The notes beneath the pieces were generated by a model. It saw nothing but the letters and a program-made list of their open reading frames with translations. It was not told the DNA's origin and ran no database searches. A stretch of 64,000 nucleotides of DNA from Escherichia phage vB_EcoM_ESCO8. A program made the position numbers and the translations under genes. The DNA is taken from sequence record OM386653.1; one strand, given 5' to 3'. Of the stretch, positions 25,963-31,966 are shown piece after piece. Position 1 is the stretch's first letter. Each line of letters starts with the position of its first letter.

Positions 25963-28542
25963 ATGGGAGCTTTTACTTTCGACATTGAAAGTAACAACTT
26001 GCTTAATGACGAAAGTGTAGATTACTTGGCAAGTCCATATCGTTTAAAAGATAGTTTTGCAATGCACTGTATTGTGTGCGAAAGTCATGATACTGGAGAG
26101 ATTATTGCTTTCCATGATGGTGATAAATATCTTTTCGATGGTCGTCCGTATGTTGAGACTGACGGAAAGTATGAATACCGACTGGAGGAATATGAGCATT
26201 TAGAATATACCCATTTCCCTCTTAAAGATTTTCCTGATTTTGTAAATGGAACAGGTAAATTTAAAGGTAATTCAAACTATAAAATTACCAAAGTAGTTGG
26301 ACATAACATCATTAACTTTGACTTACTGGCAATTAAATTATTTTTTAAACTCAACTACAGTATTAAGTACAATACTTGGGGTAATAGTAACATTGAAATT
26401 TGTGATACTATGATCTTAAGTAAGACACTAAACCCTGATCGCTTCGGTGGTCATAGTCTGGCAGAGTTATCTAAGAAAGCTGGAGGGGATGTTAAAATTG
26501 ATTTTAGAAAAAACATTCCTGAAACTGAAAGATTTAAAACATTTGCAGCAGATATGCTGTATTACTGTATTTACGATAACAAAGCTAACACCGCAGTGTT
26601 CCGTTATTTGATGGAAGAGTGGGGTGATTATAACAAGTGGTCTGAACCATTTAACTTAGAACAACGTGTAGCTGATATTATTACACGTCAAGAGCACCGT
26701 GGCTTTGCTTTCAATATGAAACAAGCAGAAGATAATATTCGTGATCTGGATGCTCGAATGGAAGCATGTCGTTTAGAGGCAGAACCTGTGCTACCTCCTA
26801 AACCTGCTACTAAAGGTTATTTGAAATCATTCATTCCACCTAAACTACAGTTTAAAAAGAATGGTGAACCTTCAAGTAACATGATAAAGTTTGCAGAGAA
26901 ACATTCTGGTGAACTTGTACAAAAAGAAGATGGTTGGTGGCTATTTGCATTAGGTAAAGAGTTTAAACTACCTATTCCAGCAGAAGAACCTATTTGTGAT
27001 CCTACAGTACCTGCTACTTTAGACGACACTACACATATTAAAAACTGGTTAGTTGGTTTAGGTTGGAGTCCATCTGAATATAAAGATAAAGATATCACTC
27101 TTAAATCTGGCACTAAGATTAAGAAAGATGAAGCACAAATGGAGAAAGCTATTCGTGACTATGTTGATCAAACATTAGCATCTAACTTCTGCCAGGACAG
27201 ATGTGATCATCTGGAGTGCACACCAGAAACTTTGGAATGGAAACTAAGAGATCGTATTGCTAAAGCTAAAGGTCGTGGTGTTAAAGTGCTTACGAACCCT
27301 TCCTTTACAAAAGGGCAAGAGAAAGATATTTGTCCTAACTTGGAAGCACTAGGTGAAAAGTTTCCTTATGCTACGCAGATTGTGCAGTATCTTACGTATA
27401 AACACCGTAGGAACTCTATTCTAGGGGGTGGTGCTGATTGGGAAGAAGATGAAGAGGATTACGATAAAGGTTATCTGGCAGCAGTAAGGGCTGATGGTCG
27501 TATACCAACTCCTGCTGCAACGTGTGATGCAGCTACGTCTCGTATGAAACATAGGCTAGTAGCAAATATCCCACGTGTAACATCTCTGTACGGATATGAA
27601 ATGCGTAACTTATTTGGTGTAGAAGTTCCAAAATACTTCCAAATTGGTTATGACTTTGATTCTCTTGAGGCAAAAATAGAATCACACTACTGTTGGCGGT
27701 ACGAGCAGGAACCACACGAATATTGTAATGCTCTGTTATTGGAAAAACCTAATGACGTTCATACAATGATGGCTCGACGTATTTCTGACACTATTGGTCG
27801 TAAGTTTGAACGAAGCCCTGCTAAATCTGTTAAGTATGGTATTACTTATGGTGCTCAAGCTGCAAAAGTAGCAAAAACTATAGGTAGTGATATGTATACA
27901 GGACAGCTTGTATACGATGCTTTCTGGGAAGCTGCAAAACCTCTTGCGCTTCTTAAAGAACGTCTGCATGACTTTTGGGTTAAAACAGGTAAGAAATACA
28001 TTCTGGGTATTGATGGTAGGAAAGTACCTACACGATCTGCACACGCAATACTTAACTCTCTGTTCCAGAGTGGTGGTGTTATTTGTGCAAAAAGAGCAAT
28101 GGTTATCTACGACGATCTTATCGAAGAAGAAGGATTAGCTGTTGACTTTTTTGTTGATGACTGGAAAAATAAGTCATTCGTTCAACAAATGATTGCATAT
28201 CACGATGAAGCACAGCTTGAAGTAACTCGTGATCTGGTGCATTTTAAATGGTTCTCTAAAGAATCTTTAGGTTGGACTCAAGTTGATGATCCAGAAGAAC
28301 AAAAGAAAATTGATAAAGAATGTTTGGATAAAGTTAATGCCTGGAAAGAAGAGGAAGAGAAACGTACTGGCAAGATTTGGGCTAACGTACATGAATCTCC
28401 GAAAGGTGGTTGGTTTACAGCCTACAGTCGTGCTGGAGAATTAGCATCTATCGCTGTTAATAAAGCTGGTGAGTATTACAATCTTAATGTACCTCTCACT
28501 GCTGGTTACGATGTTGGTAACTCATGGGCGTCTTGTCACTGA
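25963..28542 (+). CDS. DNA polymerase, family A (T7-like) with 3'-5' exonuclease domain
   Basis: Exo I FDIESNN; Pol A motif A YDFDSLEAKI, motif B RSPAKSVKYGITYG, motif C HDE (AYHDEAQ). Confidence 0.9.
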   Translation: MGAFTFDIESNNLLNDESVDYLASPYRLKDSFAMHCIVCESHDTGEIIAFHDGDKYLFDGRPYVETDGKYEYRLEEYEHLEYTHFPLKDFPDFVNGTGKFKGNSNYKITKVVGHNIINFDLLAIKLFFKLNYSIKYNTWGNSNIEICDTMILSKTLNPDRFGGHSLAELSKKAGGDVKIDFRKNIPETERFKTFAADMLYYCIYDNKANTAVFRYLMEEWGDYNKWSEPFNLEQRVADIITRQEHRGFAFNMKQAEDNIRDLDARMEACRLEAEPVLPPKPATKGYLKSFIPPKLQFKKNGEPSSNMIKFAEKHSGELVQKEDGWWLFALGKEFKLPIPAEEPICDPTVPATLDDTTHIKNWLVGLGWSPSEYKDKDITLKSGTKIKKDEAQMEKAIRDYVDQTLASNFCQDRCDHLECTPETLEWKLRDRIAKAKGRGVKVLTNPSFTKGQEKDICPNLEALGEKFPYATQIVQYLTYKHRRNSILGGGADWEEDEEDYDKGYLAAVRADGRIPTPAATCDAATSRMKHRLVANIPRVTSLYGYEMRNLFGVEVPKYFQIGYDFDSLEAKIESHYCWRYEQEPHEYCNALLLEKPNDVHTMMARRISDTIGRKFERSPAKSVKYGITYGAQAAKVAKTIGSDMYTGQLVYDAFWEAAKPLALLKERLHDFWVKTGKKYILGIDGRKVPTRSAHAILNSLFQSGGVICAKRAMVIYDDLIEEEGLAVDFFVDDWKNKSFVQQMIAYHDEAQLEVTRDLVHFKWFSKESLGWTQVDDPEEQKKIDKECLDKVNAWKEEEEKRTGKIWANVHESPKGGWFTAYSRAGELASIAVNKAGEYYNLNVPLTAGYDVGNSWASCH

Positions 28543-28569: not shown

Positions 28570-29166
28570 ATGCTTACCGTATATGGTGAAGGTATTAATG
28601 ATTTGGAAGGCGAGAGTACGCTACCTGGTAGTAAGAAACTAACGCCGCATTATATGAAATGGATGGCTATGTTGGGGAGGTGTTACTCCCCTTGTCAACA
28701 AGAACGTGATCCTTGTTATAATGGGGTGACGGTTTGTGAAGAATGGAAACTGTTCTCCAATTTCTACTCCTGGTTGCAAACTTGGGATAACTGGGAAAAC
28801 TTAGAACTTGATAAAGATATTATAGGAGGGAGAGTTTACTCTCCCGATACCTGTCTTTTAGTAACAGGAGATCTTAACAAGTTCTTAGCTTATAGAGTAA
28901 GTAAAAGATCTCATGGGACTATGGTAGGATGTAGTTACGAAAAAGATCGTAAAAAGTATAAAGCCCATATTCAACGTGATGGACGTATTATAACGCTGGG
29001 ACGTTTTAATACTGAAATTGAAGCGCATCTTTGCTGGTTGAAAGCTAAGGCAGAGCAGCTTACAAAATTCTTTGAAACTGAAGATGAAAGAGTTGTTCCA
29101 CATCTTAAAGCACTATATAATGAAATGCTTGAGTATGTAGAACAACACAAAGAGTGGACACGATAG
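28570..29166 (+). CDS. homing-endonuclease-like protein with AP2-type DNA-binding domain
   Basis: C-terminal block YKAHIQRDGRIITLGRFNTEIEAHLCWLKAKAE resembles AP2 domains of phage homing endonucleases; sits between DNA polymerase and the next gene. Confidence 0.4.
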   Translation: MLTVYGEGINDLEGESTLPGSKKLTPHYMKWMAMLGRCYSPCQQERDPCYNGVTVCEEWKLFSNFYSWLQTWDNWENLELDKDIIGGRVYSPDTCLLVTGDLNKFLAYRVSKRSHGTMVGCSYEKDRKKYKAHIQRDGRIITLGRFNTEIEAHLCWLKAKAEQLTKFFETEDERVVPHLKALYNEMLEYVEQHKEWTR

Positions 29167-29174
29167 GAGAAAAT

Positions 29175-29768
29175 ATGAATATTGAAGATCAAAAAGTACG
29201 AGCTTTAGAAGTATTACGTATGTGCCAACTGGTAGATCCGTTTGCAATTGTAGCTGGCGGCGCTGTACGTGATTGGCGATTAGAGAAACCTGCGCAAGAT
29301 ATTGACATTTACTTGCGTATGCCTAACCACAATACACTCGTACTAGTAGAGAAATTTTTGATGTTGGGTGTTGGTGCACGTAATGTTAAACAACTTACTA
29401 AGCAAACAGAACACACTTATGCCGAACTACCACATTTGAAATGGGTATTTGAAGCATACTATAAAGATCTTAAGTTTAACTTTATGATCATGGAAGAGGG
29501 TGTACGCAGTGAAATCGTATGGAACTTTGATGTGGCTATTTGCCTGTGTTACTGGGATGGTCAAAATTATGTATATCATCCAGACTTTGAATTTGCACTG
29601 AAAACTAATATTTGTACTATTAATCACCGATACACAGGTAAGGAAGCACACGTCCGTAAAATGGCAGAACGTTTCCCTATGTTCCGCTTTGTAAAAGACG
29701 TTTTCATTCCCAAAGAACCAGAAGTACGTACACTGGATTCATTTAACAACGAAGAATTTAAGATTTAA
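29175..29768 (+). CDS. Pol-beta-superfamily nucleotidyltransferase, CCA-adding/poly(A) polymerase head-domain-like
   Basis: Motif AIVAGGAVRDW followed by DIDIYL (GGxVRD ... DxD); only about 197 aa, so head domain only; start at ATG 29175 behind AGGAGA. Confidence 0.5.
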   Translation: MNIEDQKVRALEVLRMCQLVDPFAIVAGGAVRDWRLEKPAQDIDIYLRMPNHNTLVLVEKFLMLGVGARNVKQLTKQTEHTYAELPHLKWVFEAYYKDLKFNFMIMEEGVRSEIVWNFDVAICLCYWDGQNYVYHPDFEFALKTNICTINHRYTGKEAHVRKMAERFPMFRFVKDVFIPKEPEVRTLDSFNNEEFKI

Positions 29769-29771
29769 GTG

Positions 29772-29801
29772 TTGACAAACATTATAATTATGTGTTATTA
29801 T
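29772..29801 (+). promoter_or_regulatory. sigma70-like promoter (TTGACA-18-TGtTATTAT, extended -10)
   Basis: -35 at 29772-29777, TG at 29793-29794, -10 at 29796-29801; precedes ORF 29812. Confidence 0.5.
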
Positions 29802-29811
29802 GAGGACTTGA

Positions 29812-30210
29812 ATGACAGATAATCGTTCTAAAATCTTAGTCGAGACGTTCTACAGTAGAGAAACTAACCGTCTTGAGCTAACTAAAAAAGATGTTGAACC
29901 TCAAGATAATACCTTTTTTATTCAAATACTATGTCTCTTTGGTGGATACAACCGTTTAACAGTGCGGGTAGAAAACAAAGAGATATCTGAAACCACTATC
30001 ACAAAACGTGAGCTTATGTTACTACAGGATACAATACGAGATGTTTTGGATAATCCTGGAAAAGCAAAAGTAATTAACCTTGGTGGAGAAAAGATACAAA
30101 TCCTCCATTTCGAAAGTGGTGAAATAGGATTTGGTATTGGTCTTGGTAAATACCTGTTGGAAGAAACTGACGCTACTCTTTTACGAGAGTTTTGTGTTAA
30201 AGTAATGTAA
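29812..30210 (+). CDS. hypothetical protein
   Basis: 132-aa ORF downstream of the promoter. Confidence 0.45.
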   Translation: MTDNRSKILVETFYSRETNRLELTKKDVEPQDNTFFIQILCLFGGYNRLTVRVENKEISETTITKRELMLLQDTIRDVLDNPGKAKVINLGGEKIQILHFESGEIGFGIGLGKYLLEETDATLLREFCVKVM

Positions 30211-30226
30211 TTATAGAGGAGAATTT

Positions 30227-31174
30227 ATGCCAGTAATTAATTCTGAAATCGACCGTCGTACTAAAAAAGAAGCATTCTGGGCTGAAGGTATCGTTGAATA
30301 TGTCAAACTGGATAAGTTTGATGAAATGAAAGTCTCTTATATTAAGGTTGCAGGTCAGCCAGATAAGAAAATTGAATCAACTCACAAAGCATCTCTGCTT
30401 ATTAAAGAGAAAGGTGCTAGTGCTGATGATAAAGGTGTTTGGGTTAGCCTAGGTGAAGTTAAACTGCATCCAGAACATGAAAACCTGCAAGTTAAAGATG
30501 GTGACAAGTGGGTTACTATCGAAAAAGGTGTAGAACTAACTATGGATGTTAAACCTTCTGAATGGAATGGCAAAACATACTACAATTCCTCTAAAGGTAA
30601 AATCACTATTCTTTCAACAGAAGGTGTTCAGCAAGCACAATCTTCTTCAAAAGGTGGAAATAAGCCATCTAATAACGAAGGTAGCAAGCCTAACTACAAA
30701 AAACGTGATACCGTAGGGATTGAAACAGGACACGCTGTAAACGGCGCTCTGGAGCTTCTACGTGCTGGTGTGAAAGGTGATGCTTTCGACTTGGCTGGTG
30801 TGGTACAATCTGCAACTGTTACTCTGAAAGCAGAAATTGCTAAAGATCGTGGCGTTGATGTGACTGACTATGATCTTGGTGCTTCAGTTGGACACGCAAT
30901 TCTTAACGCTTGTCGTGATCATACAGGTAAAACTGTAACGGCAGAAGAGATTATTGAAGCTGCTCGTGAAGTTCTTGCTTTGTCTGATAAAGTAGCTGCT
31001 GCTATCCGTGGAATGTCTACCCCAGTACAAGAAGTTAAGAAAGAAACTAAAAAAGTAGAGAAGAAAGAGCCAGCACCGAAAGAACCAGAACCTGTTGTTC
31101 AAGATTTCGATGATGATATCCCATTTGCTCCTATTGGTTTGCAGTATGGTCGAAACTTCCTGCACTGTTTCTAA
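30227..31174 (+). CDS. SSB-like protein carrying an E. coli SSB C-terminal tip motif (DFDDDIPF) followed by a 15-aa extension
   Basis: Acidic, Pro-rich linker ...KKEPAPKEPEPVVQDFDDDIPF then APIGLQYGRNFLHCF; N-terminal region compatible with an OB fold but not confirmed. Confidence 0.35.
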   Translation: MPVINSEIDRRTKKEAFWAEGIVEYVKLDKFDEMKVSYIKVAGQPDKKIESTHKASLLIKEKGASADDKGVWVSLGEVKLHPEHENLQVKDGDKWVTIEKGVELTMDVKPSEWNGKTYYNSSKGKITILSTEGVQQAQSSSKGGNKPSNNEGSKPNYKKRDTVGIETGHAVNGALELLRAGVKGDAFDLAGVVQSATVTLKAEIAKDRGVDVTDYDLGASVGHAILNACRDHTGKTVTAEEIIEAAREVLALSDKVAAAIRGMSTPVQEVKKETKKVEKKEPAPKEPEPVVQDFDDDIPFAPIGLQYGRNFLHCF

Positions 31175-31198
31175 TAGTTAAATATTGTGTAAATATAA

Positions 31199-31222
31199 GG
31201 AGCCTAACGGCTCCTTTTCTTT
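31199..31222 (+). terminator. intrinsic terminator (ggagcc-TAAC-ggctcc) plus T-tract
   Basis: 6-bp stem followed by ttttctttg after the SSB-like gene. Confidence 0.6.
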
Positions 31223-31234
31223 GAAGGAGATATA

Positions 31235-31966
31235 ATGAGCGAATTTGTAAACAACACCGCGTTAAACTACCTGCAAACCCTCGAAAGCAATAGTGTAGAT
31301 TTGATTCTTACTGACCCACCATATGCTATTTCTCGTGACACAAATTTTCAATCTGGAGAGCCTACTGGAAAAGATACAGATAGATTCCGTGTATCTTACA
31401 ACTTTGGGGATTGGGATGTTGTAGATATTCCTTACTTTAAAGAAGTATTCAAAGAAGCCTATAGGGTGCTTAGAAAAGGTGGTACTTGCATAGTTTGGTA
31501 TGATATCTGGAAGATCCAGGAGCTACGTGAAATCCTTGAACCGCTTGGTTTTCGTATGTTCCGTACTATTGAATGGATTAAAACAAACCCTGTACCCATC
31601 AACAGTGGTGTTAACTACCTTAGTAACGCTAAAGAGATGGCTATTGTTTGTGTTAAAGGTTCTAAGCCAACCTTCAATGCCTCCTACCACAAGGGTGTGT
31701 TTGAGTATCCTATCTATCAAGGAGCAGATCGTTTTCATCCGACACAAAAACACTTGACTTTGTTTTGTGACCTTATTAATATACATACCAACGAAGGAGA
31801 TGTAGTCTTAGACTTCTTCTCTGGAAGTGCAACAACACAAGTTGCGGCACTTTTAACAGGTAGAGAATACTTAGGCTGTGAAGCCGATGTAAATATTTTT
31901 AAGCAAGCGGAGGAACGACTAAATGAGTACACTGAACAGCAAAATCACCCTGAAAGCACTGATTAA
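31235..31966 (+). CDS. DNA methyltransferase, beta-class (N6-adenine or N4-cytosine)
   Basis: Motif IV ILTDPPYA near the N-terminus and AdoMet motif I VVLDFFSGSATT near the C-terminus (IV-before-I order). Confidence 0.75.
   Translation: MSEFVNNTALNYLQTLESNSVDLILTDPPYAISRDTNFQSGEPTGKDTDRFRVSYNFGDWDVVDIPYFKEVFKEAYRVLRKGGTCIVWYDIWKIQELREILEPLGFRMFRTIEWIKTNPVPINSGVNYLSNAKEMAIVCVKGSKPTFNASYHKGVFEYPIYQGADRFHPTQKHLTLFCDLINIHTNEGDVVLDFFSGSATTQVAALLTGREYLGCEADVNIFKQAEERLNEYTEQQNHPESTD

What the first reader, a model, noticed from the sequence alone, without database searches (positions are those of the whole stretch)
30227..31174. SSB C-terminal tip motif DFDDDIPF embedded 15 residues from the end of a 315-aa protein
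The octapeptide DFDDDIPF matches the E. coli SSB C-terminal tip, which recruits many host genome-maintenance proteins and normally needs a free terminal Phe. Here it follows a Pro/Glu/Lys-rich linker but is extended by APIGLQYGRNFLHCF before the stop, and no stop codon lies nearby in any frame. Either this is a phage SSB with a masked or proteolytically exposed tip, or a decoy that mimics the SSB tail to sequester host partners. The N-terminal domain is not obviously a canonical SSB OB fold.
Basis: partly seen in the sequence, partly recalled or inferred. Interest (0 to 1): 0.5.

Follow-up and report, generated by a model that had tools for sequence, protein, structure and literature searches.

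The report
Phage SSB with extended tip tail
The gene is the likely single-stranded-DNA-binding protein of a phi92-like E. coli phage, and the 15 residues after its host-like DFDDDIPF tip are not an error but a conserved add-on peptide that many phages and prophages attach to their SSBs and that no paper I could search mentions.

Summary
ORF 30227-31174 (+) encodes 315 aa ending ...DFDDDIPF(300)-APIGLQYGRNFLHCF(315).

It is not a sequencing error. At least 55 phi92-like (Justusliebigvirus) genomes carry the same protein.

The protein is the only annotated SSB in one fully annotated close relative and lies in a T7-like replication module. It is predicted to have an OB-like domain, a four-helix domain, a disordered linker and the tail.

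Most homologues do end at DIPF. About 20 of 100 carry the same kind of extension, scattered over the family tree.

The same roughly 15-aa module (PF|AP[IV]GL[QP][YF]...hydrophobic end) follows the tip on at least eight unrelated scaffolds. These include canonical prophage SSBs (411 of 5426 complete E. coli genomes for one subtype alone). It also ends the primase-helicase of Vequintavirinae-like phages.

Variation in it is synonymous only: 6 synonymous and 0 nonsynonymous changes between proteins about 63% identical. So it is a selected, horizontally exchanged short linear motif.

Best reading: a bipartite docking tail that replaces the free-carboxylate contact and changes which partners bind. 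The partner is unknown, and capping or processing remain possible.

No searched paper, Pfam, NCBIfam or PHROG model or PDB chain covers the extension.

Verdict: a new variant of a known kind, of moderate to high interest.

The parts
29772..29801 (+). sigma-70-like promoter (TTGACA-18-TATTAT, TG extended) in front of the two-gene unit orf132 + SSB
   Evidence: 11 of 12 matches. This is a consensus match only; 3 sites were found against 4.2 expected in shuffles, so it is weak evidence.
29812..30210 (+). 132-aa ORF of unknown function (phrog_16560), always directly upstream of the SSB gene in relatives with and without the extension
30214..30220 (+). Shine-Dalgarno-like AGAGGAG, 6 nt before the ATG
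   Evidence: read directly from the sequence.
30227..31174 (+). SSB gene, 315 aa, PHROG 4477
   Evidence: E=2.5e-101. Annotated as SSB in ESCO32, Eryne, JLBYU50 and BME3.
30227..30616 (+). residues 1-130: predicted beta-rich OB-like domain
30617..30706 (+). residues 131-160: disordered Ser/Gly/Asn/Lys linker
   Evidence: pLDDT 42-64; variable in alignment A1.
30707..31012 (+). residues 161-262: four-helix domain, the most conserved part of the family (GHAVNGALEL...YDLGASVGHAILNACRD)
   Evidence: pLDDT 89-97 with helices 163-179, 186-208, 215-230 and 239-260. Invariant columns. The only part shared with the 400-aa Vequintavirinae homologues.
31013..31102 (+). residues 263-292: Pro/Glu/Lys-rich intrinsically disordered linker
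   Evidence: pLDDT 46-60; length and sequence vary in A1.
31103..31126 (+). residues 293-300: DFDDDIPF, identical to the E. coli SSB C-terminal tip but internal here
   Evidence: The family profile matches only the last 21 residues of E. coli SSB (1eqq) in the PDB.
31127..31171 (+). residues 301-315: APIGLQYGRNFLHCF, the conserved tail extension (junction PF|AP, G+4, L+5, Y+7, hydrophobic C-terminus)
   Evidence: motif statistics over 135 distinct tails; synonymous-only variation.
31197..31226 (+). intrinsic-terminator-like hairpin AAGGAGCC-TAAC-GGCTCCTT followed by a T-run, 23 nt after the stop
   Evidence: A similar hairpin follows the gene in relatives with (P0004) and without (P0006) the extension.

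Best explanation
[quoted passage not shown] Its predicted layout is an OB-like ssDNA-binding domain, a conserved four-helix domain, a disordered linker and a C-terminal tail.

The tail has two parts. The first is the host-type SSB tip (DFDDDIPF). The second is a roughly 15-residue module (APIGLQYGRNFLHCF) fused directly to it.

Shown here:
- The extension is real and under strong purifying selection.
- It has a fixed length of 14-15 aa.
- It has invariant junction and core positions: IPF|AP-x-GL-x-Y ... hydrophobic-x-x-hydrophobic-COOH.
- It behaves as a portable cassette, gained, lost and swapped among at least eight unrelated SSB-type scaffolds and a phage primase-helicase.

Inferred: IPF plus the extension work as one linear docking motif of about 20 residues. 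The extension takes the place of the free alpha-carboxylate that classical SSB partners (ExoI, RecO, chi, PriA, RecQ) use. The phage SSB therefore no longer docks in the classical way and is redirected to a different or additional partner at the replication or recombination site.

The same module sits on prophage SSBs that have no polymerase of their own. No neighbouring gene always accompanies it. The partner is therefore most likely a host protein common to gamma-proteobacteria. Its identity is unknown.
For: Real and conserved:
- The same 315-aa protein occurs in at least 55 phage genomes.
- The window tail differs from the Phapecoctavirus tail by 6 synonymous and 0 nonsynonymous changes in 18 codons, although the proteins are about 63% identical.
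- The subtype APIGLPYPRHAIYVI is encoded by 31 distinct DNA sequences.

SSB identity:
- The gene lies in a replication module with primase-helicase, a PolA-type polymerase and a methyltransferase.
- It is the only SSB annotated in the complete Eryne genome.

Modularity:
- The extension is present in about 20 of 100 homologues. It is scattered on the tree with at least 14 parsimony changes, and identical tails sit on distant branches.
- The same module follows the tip on canonical PF00436 SSBs, phrog_743, 7364, 9002, 2544, 3284 and 32668.
- It occurs in 46 gamma-proteobacterial genome loci, more than 160 viral contigs and 190 phage records.
- One subtype is in 411 of 5426 complete E. coli genomes, inside lambdoid recombination modules.
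- The GKSRIYAL subtype occurs both on an E. coli prophage SSB and on PHROG-4477 proteins.

Docking motif rather than filler:
- Over 135 distinct tails, P-2, F-1 and A+1 are invariant. P+2 is present in 128, G+4 in 121 and L+5 in 119; Y or F at +7 occurs in 117. The length is 14-15 aa in 118.
- The same motif ends the primase-helicase of Vequintavirinae-like phages (...DDDTPFAPIGLQYAKHAIYVI), in genomes whose SSB also carries it. This echoes the paired T7 gp4 and gp2.5 tails.

Loss of classical docking is expected:
- GFP appended directly to the SSB C-terminus abolishes ExoI binding (PMC7293020).
- RecO Arg132 anchors the carboxyl end, and IPF is the ordered, dominant part of the tip (PMC3152348).

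Partner not locally encoded: the most common neighbour family is in only 19 of 82 loci.
Against: - No binding partner was identified and no interaction could be modelled with these tools.
- AF2 gives the tail low confidence (pLDDT about 50) and no structure.
- Close relatives without the extension (80-87% identical) evidently work, so the extension is accessory.
- The second half of the extension differs between lytic myoviruses (GRNF[LI]HC[FI]) and prophages (PRHAI[HY][AV]I) of the same host. That is not obviously what a single host partner would predict.
- The window phage's own primase-helicase lacks the motif.
Confidence: 0.5

Rival explanations
1. Cap or mask. The extension exists mainly to block the free carboxylate. 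The phage or prophage SSB would then not recruit host SSB-interacting proteins to mobile-element ssDNA (nucleases ExoI and RecJ, helicases RecQ, RecG and PriA), and would not be read by host systems that use the tip.
For: A direct C-terminal GFP fusion abolishes ExoI binding and behaves as dominant-negative when expressed from a plasmid (PMC7293020). The carboxyl end is anchored by an arginine in RecO (PMC3152348). The extension is confined to mobile-element SSBs in prophage recombination modules next to Erf, Rad52-like annealases and anti-RecBCD genes. Frequent gain and loss fits an arms-race accessory.
Against: A cap needs neither a fixed 14-15-aa length nor invariant AP-x-GL-x-Y. Losing the tip would be a simpler way to avoid recruitment, yet IPF stays invariant in all 135 extended tails. 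The same motif on a primase-helicase tail is not explained by masking an SSB tip.
Confidence: 0.18
2. T7-like internal replisome tether. In this phage the tail binds the phage's own PolA-type DNA polymerase (or its primase-helicase), as the acidic tails of T7 gp2.5 and gp4, each ending in Phe, bind T7 DNA polymerase.
For: The phage has a T7-like replisome: a Toprim-DnaB primase-helicase, a PolA-family polymerase and a thioredoxin-domain protein, with no clamp or clamp loader annotated. In Vequintavirinae-like phages both the SSB and the primase-helicase end in the motif. The role of the gp2.5 tail with T7 polymerase and helicase is summarised in bioRxiv 10.1101/2025.11.11.687766.
Against: The same module is common on SSBs of lambdoid prophages and plasmids that encode no polymerase or helicase of this type. 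No neighbouring gene always accompanies it. Relatives with the same polymerase and helicase lack the extension.
Confidence: 0.15
3. Pro-tail or degron. The extension is removed by a protease at F300|A301 to expose a classical tip at the right time, or it targets the SSB for regulated turnover.
For: The junction PF|AP is invariant and the C-terminus is non-polar. The phage genus encodes an HslV-family peptidase.
Against: I know of no cytoplasmic site-specific protease shared by all the hosts and elements that carry the motif. The known ATP-dependent proteases degrade processively rather than trim (general knowledge). Degrons do not usually keep a fixed internal GL-x-Y core. Prophage and plasmid carriers lack the HslV-like gene in the regions examined.
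Confidence: 0.1
4. Tail-mimic decoy. The protein is not an SSB but a decoy that soaks up host SSB partners.
For: The tip is identical to the host tip. There is no sequence homology to known SSB cores.
Against: It is the only SSB candidate in the genome and sits in the replication module. It has a predicted OB-like fold. A tip without a free carboxylate is a poor mimic for the known pockets.
Confidence: 0.04
5. Artefact. A sequencing or assembly error, or a neutral read-through past a lost stop codon.
For: Most homologues, and the PHROG, NCBIfam and Pfam profiles, end at DIPF.
Against: At least 55 independent genomes carry it. Variation is synonymous only. The same motif occurs on many unrelated genes.
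Confidence: 0.01

Closest known systems
E. coli SSB C-terminal tip (SSB-Ct, DDDIPF) and its partner pockets
   Same: The octapeptide DFDDDIPF is identical and is preceded by a disordered linker. IPF is the invariant core, as in the RecO and ExoI complexes, where only the hydrophobic end is ordered.
   Different: Here the Phe is not terminal, so the alpha-carboxylate used by the known pockets is absent. Fifteen further conserved residues follow. The DNA-binding core is not a PF00436 domain.
Phage T7 gp2.5 (SSB) and gp4 (primase-helicase) acidic tails ending in Phe
   Same: A T7-like replisome. A related tail motif sits on both the SSB and the primase-helicase in Vequintavirinae-like relatives. 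The tail serves as a protein-protein docking element (for the gp2.5 tail).
   Different: There is no homology to gp2.5. The motif is longer, has a hydrophobic second half, and also occurs on prophage SSBs that have no phage polymerase. The window phage's own helicase lacks it.
Phage HK620 SSB, whose last six residues (NDYPPF) recruit its cognate annealase Sak4 (PMC5928155)
   Same: A mobile-element SSB whose variant C-terminal tail is needed for a specific partner. Extended-tail prophage SSBs likewise sit next to annealases.
   Different: The HK620 tail is still a terminal ...PF. The extension described here comes after the PF, and it is found next to several different annealase families and in phages with none nearby.
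Artificial C-terminal fusions of E. coli SSB (SSB-C-term-GFP)
   Same: The tip is made internal by added residues.
   Different: The fusion is a laboratory construct that loses ExoI binding and cannot be the sole SSB. The natural extension is short, conserved and selected.
RPA32 / STN1-type OB proteins

Membership tests
PHROG 4477 (phi92 / rV5-like phage protein, function unassigned) | significant match to the family profile | tested here: met
   E=2.5e-101, 340 bits. The profile ends (position 393 of 393) at residue 300 of the protein.
Bacterial SSB family (Pfam PF00436 / TIGR00621) | sequence match of the OB core to the family model | tested here: not met
   No Pfam or NCBIfam hit. hhalign of the N-domain profile against canonical SSB OB domains gave probability 0.2%.
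Bacterial SSB family (Pfam PF00436 / TIGR00621) | OB fold | tested here: inconclusive
Bacterial SSB family (Pfam PF00436 / TIGR00621) | disordered linker ending in an acidic ...D-I-P-F tip | tested here: met
   Residues 263-300.
Bacterial SSB family (Pfam PF00436 / TIGR00621) | the tip Phe is the last residue (free alpha-carboxylate) | tested here: not met
   Fifteen residues follow F300.
Functional SSB (any fold) | binds ssDNA and is required for replication or recombination | not testable with these tools
   Supported only by context: the replication module and its status as the sole annotated SSB in the Eryne genome.
Extended-tail SSB class (defined here, no published name found) | junction [IVT]-P-F | A-P | tested here: met
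   IPF|AP at residues 298-302. P-2, F-1 and A+1 are invariant in 135 of 135 distinct tails.
Extended-tail SSB class (defined here, no published name found) | core G+4, L+5 and Y/F+7 after the junction | tested here: met
   G304, L305 and Y307. Class frequencies are 121, 119 and 117 of 135.
Extended-tail SSB class (defined here, no published name found) | extension of 14-15 residues ending hydrophobic-x-x-hydrophobic-COOH | tested here: met
   15 residues ending L-H-C-F. 118 of 135 tails are 14-15 aa long.
T7 gp2.5-type SSB | homology or fold match to gp2.5 | tested here: not met
Beta-clamp-binding motif (QL[SD]LF / QLxLxL) | match to the consensus | tested here: not met
   Compared by eye with the position table. 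Q at +6 is not conserved (Q74, P47), and the last six residues ([HN]-[AL]-[IL]-[YHN]-[VCA]-[IML]) only loosely resemble QLxLxL. The consensus is recalled from general knowledge. No binding test was possible.

The most novel reading that the evidence does not exclude
Mobile elements of gamma-proteobacteria share a previously undescribed, horizontally exchanged C-terminal docking peptide (IPF|AP-x-GL-x-Y...hydrophobic end). These elements include large lytic myoviruses, lambdoid prophages and plasmids. They fuse the peptide to the host-type SSB tip, and sometimes to their primase-helicase. It would define a second mode of SSB-tail recognition that needs no free carboxylate. It would let foreign SSBs take over or avoid a host hub protein while staying distinct from the host's own SSB.
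Probability: 0.4. Interest if true: 0.75.

Novelty: new variant of a known kind. Interest (0 to 1): 0.6.

Why it matters
The SSB tip is the central recruiting handle of bacterial genome maintenance, and the accepted rule is that it must be the free C-terminus. Here a large natural class of phage, prophage and plasmid SSBs breaks that rule in one conserved way. One subtype alone is present in about 8% of complete E. coli genomes. If the extension redirects or blocks partner binding, it shows how mobile elements separate their ssDNA transactions from the host's SSB interaction network. It would also matter for recombineering with phage SSB and annealase pairs, for models of phage replisome assembly, and for SSB-tip inhibitors being developed as antibacterials. 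The hypothesis can be tested directly with peptides and a single stop-codon mutant.

Tried and rejected
- Sequencing error or read-through: rejected.
- Another tip-bearing ORF in the window: none.
- Sequence homology of the core to known SSBs or to any solved structure: none. Only the tail matches E. coli SSB.
- Foldseek against viral models: only uncharacterised relatives and weak SSB-like hits. The afdb50 library was unavailable.
- Remnant of the extension after the stop codon of a close relative without it (P0006): the alignment is ambiguous (8 of 11 matches, by eye). This says nothing about how the extension is lost.
- A gene that always accompanies extended tails: none. The top neighbour family is in 19 of 82 loci, and the neighbours are ordinary prophage early genes such as a recombination-associated exonuclease (phrog_724), Erf, a repressor and methyltransferases.
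- Clamp-binding motif, ClpX/ssrA-like or MuA-like degron, PDZ-type C-terminal ligand, membrane anchor: considered from the position table. None fits well and none was testable.
- A PDB chain containing the extension: none.
- Literature strings IGLQY, DIPFAP, DDDIPFA, RHAIHAI, GRNFLHCF and others: no paper. Papers on phage SSB tails (HK620 Sak4; Retron-Eco8) do not concern this extension.
- Complex prediction with host or phage partners was not possible, because the structure tool takes single chains from the window only.
- Apparent relaxation of the acidic residues in the APIGLPYPRHAIYVI subgroup was not compared with a matched set of free-tip SSBs, so I do not rely on it.

Full report
**1. 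The observation**

The ORF at 30227-31174 (+) is real and encodes 315 aa.
- DFDDDIPF occupies residues 293-300 (nt 31103-31126).
- APIGLQYGRNFLHCF occupies residues 301-315 (nt 31127-31171).
- The stop is TAA at 31172-31174.

The exact octapeptide is expected about 4e-7 times by chance in the six-frame translation of the window. It is the only such tail in the window.

Downstream of DIPF there is no stop in any + frame before 31172.

The gene has a Shine-Dalgarno-like AGAGGAG 6 nt upstream of the ATG. A terminator-like hairpin follows at 31197-31216. With the upstream 132-aa ORF and a promoter-like site at 29772-29801, it may form a two-gene unit. The promoter evidence is weak.

**2. Where the window comes from, and whether this is an error**

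The region is 100% identical to Escherichia phage vB_EcoM_ESCO32 and at least 98.4% identical to phi92 and other Justusliebigvirus genomes.
- The same 315-aa protein, with full coverage, is present in at least 55 phage records at 95% identity or more.
- It also forms a cluster of 86 member sequences in the protein collection.
- Resequencing is therefore unnecessary: the extension is not an indel artefact.

**3. What the protein is**

Sequence searches gave the following.
- Pfam, NCBIfam and the PDB sequence search find nothing for the body of the protein.
- PHROGs places it in family 4477 with unknown function (E=2.5e-101). The profile ends exactly at residue 300.
- A family profile matches the PDB only through the last 21 residues of E. 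coli SSB.
- A profile-profile comparison of the N-terminal domain with canonical SSB OB domains is negative, at probability 0.2%.

An AlphaFold2 model built on 45 homologues is confident for two domains.
- A beta domain covers residues 1-130 (pLDDT about 90).
- A four-helix domain covers residues 163-260 (pLDDT about 95).
- The two are separated and followed by disordered segments.

Context agrees with an SSB role.
- The gene lies after the primase-helicase, a PolA-type polymerase, an HNH endonuclease, a nucleotidyltransferase and a small ORF. It lies before a DNA methyltransferase.
- In the fully annotated genome of phage Eryne, which carries the identical protein, it is the only gene called SSB. 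The replisome there looks T7-like, with no clamp or clamp loader annotated.

I conclude that it is the phage's SSB. This rests on fold prediction, tail and context, not on homology or an assay.

**4.

Of 100 homologues, most end exactly at ...DDDIPF. About 20 carry an extension of the same type, for example:
- APIGLQYGMNLLHAMP
- APVGLQYARHAISALYA
- SPLGLQYPNHSMYALYA
- APIGLPYGRNFIHCI
- APVGLQYGRSKIYAL

On a neighbour-joining tree of the conserved helical domain the extended members are scattered. The tree is rough, but it needs at least 14 parsimony changes. Identical tails also sit on distant branches.

A relative that is 80% identical and lacks the extension stops right after DIPF, just before a terminator hairpin.

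The extension is thus an accessory cassette that is repeatedly gained, lost or swapped.

**5. The extension is a widespread module**

A profile of tip plus extension retrieves NCBI-named SSB fragments from Salmonella, E. coli, Proteus, Tatumella and Klebsiella. Their tails include DDDIPFAPIGLPYPRHAIYVI, DDDIPFAPVTLPFPRHAIHAI and DDDIPFAPIGLQYPALLLCI.

Collection scans extend this.
- A scan of one genome per species finds 46 loci in Enterobacterales, Vibrionales, Alteromonadales, Pasteurellaceae and Pseudomonas. Most are canonical PF00436 SSBs of 150-250 aa.
- Pattern scans of viral contigs give more than 160 further loci.
- 190 phage records hold at least 80% of the composite tail, out of 611 records that match the 27-aa query at E up to 1.
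- One subtype alone is in 411 of 5426 complete E. coli genomes. It lies in lambdoid prophage recombination modules with Rad52-like or Erf annealases, HNH, ssb, a 3'-5' exonuclease and an anti-RecBCD gene.

Besides PHROG 4477 and PF00436, the module follows the tip on phrog_743, 7364 and 9002 (all annotated SSB). It also follows the tip on phrog_2544, 3284 and 32668 (function unknown).

The GKSRIYAL subtype occurs both on an E. coli prophage SSB and on PHROG-4477 proteins.

In Vequintavirinae-like phages the DNA primase-helicase ends ...DDDTPFAPIGLQYAKHAIYVI or ...DDDTPFAPIGLQYANHAIYVL. One viral contig carries both this helicase tail and an extended SSB tail (L096 and L171).

**6. Selection and motif anatomy**

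Over 135 distinct tip-plus-extension combinations:
- P-2, F-1 and A+1 are invariant.
- P+2 is present in 128, G+4 in 121 and L+5 in 119. Y or F at +7 is present in 117.
- The last residue is I, M, L or V in 115 of 135 (F in the window phage's own tail), and the one before it is V, C or A in 104.
- 118 extensions are 14 or 15 residues long.

Selection is evident at the DNA level.
- The window-type tail is identical in Justusliebigvirus, Phapecoctavirus and phage PsgM04F. The DNA differs by six synonymous and no nonsynonymous changes in 18 codons between proteins about 63% identical.
- The peptide IPFAPIGLPYPRHAIYVI is encoded by 31 different DNA sequences.
- This is strong purifying selection on the peptide.

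IPF stays invariant in every extended tail.

**7. Mechanism**

Shown:
- a selected, fixed-length, modular C-terminal peptide fused to the SSB tip;
- it occurs on replication and recombination proteins of mobile elements;
- no single gene always lies next to it.

Established knowledge:
- Classical partners bind the hydrophobic IPF end, and an arginine anchors the terminal carboxylate (RecO: PMC3152348).
- Appending GFP directly to the C-terminus abolishes ExoI binding, and such fusions cannot be the sole SSB (PMC7293020).

Inference:
- The natural extension removes the classical docking mode.
- Because IPF and the extension are conserved together, they act as one docking motif of about 20 residues for a different or additional partner.
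- That partner is probably host-encoded, given the carriers that have no replisome of their own.

Rivals:
- A pure cap. This is argued against by the fixed length, the conserved core, and the motif on a helicase.
- A T7-like tether to the phage's own polymerase. This is argued against by the prophage carriers.
- A pro-tail or degron. No suitable protease is known to me.
- A decoy, or an artefact. Both are very unlikely.

I could not model complexes, so the partner is unknown.

**8. Comparison with what is known, and novelty**

The tip is the E. coli SSB-Ct. The paired SSB and helicase tails echo T7 gp2.5 and gp4. Partner-specific phage SSB tails are known from HK620 and Sak4 (PMC5928155).

The new element is a conserved extension after the tip. 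Nothing searched covers it.
- No paper in the searchable library contains the motif strings.
- No PDB chain contains the extension.
- Every PHROG and NCBIfam SSB-type profile that matched in these scans ends at the tip.

The library lacks most subscription-journal papers, so a prior description cannot be excluded.

I rate this a new variant of a known kind.

Noticed in passing
window 29154-29768 (+): A 204-aa nucleotidyltransferase (phrog_1614). Its homologues in two related metagenomic phages carry precomputed hits to PF26128 (Gad2, the anti-Gabija protein family). The window protein itself gave no Gad2 hit at E up to 0.01, only a sub-threshold PolyA_pol head-domain match.
   Followed up: partly
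window 29812-30210 (+): A 132-aa ORF of unknown function (phrog_16560). It lies directly upstream of the SSB gene in every relative examined, with or without the tail extension. It may be co-transcribed, given the promoter-like site at 29772-29801 and the terminator-like hairpin at 31197-31216.
   Followed up: partly
window 28570-29166 (+): An HNH endonuclease ORF (phrog_953) lies between the DNA polymerase and the nucleotidyltransferase. It overlaps the start of the next ORF by 13 nt.
   Followed up: no
L052 2399-2581; L053 2396-2578; L059, L077, L096 (691-aa ORFs): The DNA primase-helicase of Vequintavirinae-like Klebsiella and Salmonella phages ends in DDDTPF plus the same extension (APIGLQYAKHAIYVI or ...ANHAIYVL). 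This is a tip-like tail on a non-SSB replisome protein.
   Followed up: partly
protein P0184 (340 aa): A metagenomic protein with three internal repeats, ERFDDD[IV]PFS. These are tip-like motifs inside a protein with no PHROG or Pfam match. It is a candidate multivalent tip mimic.
   Followed up: no
phage records MG065639.1 (Campylobacter phage A150), OR584014.1 (Pseudomonas phage PsgM04F), OK210077.1 (Serratia phage KKP_3264), OL656106.1 (Salmonella phage UAB_1): Records labelled with non-Escherichia hosts carry this locus. A150 is 98.4% identical in DNA over 29800-31400. KKP_3264 and UAB_1 are among the 55 records at 95% DNA identity or more and encode the same protein at over 99% amino-acid identity. 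PsgM04F has a homologous SSB gene with the identical tail. The host labels may be wrong or reflect contamination.
   Followed up: no
L226 (phage Eryne) 11426-12079 and 14059-14319: This Justusliebigvirus genome encodes an HslV-family peptidase and a thioredoxin-domain protein. Both bear on the processing and T7-like rival hypotheses.
   Followed up: no
window 25963-28542 versus L001 7436-10750: The DNA polymerase CDS is 2580 nt in the window and in phage Eryne, but is annotated as 3315 nt in ESCO32. The cause could be a different start, an insertion or an intein. It was not examined.
   Followed up: no
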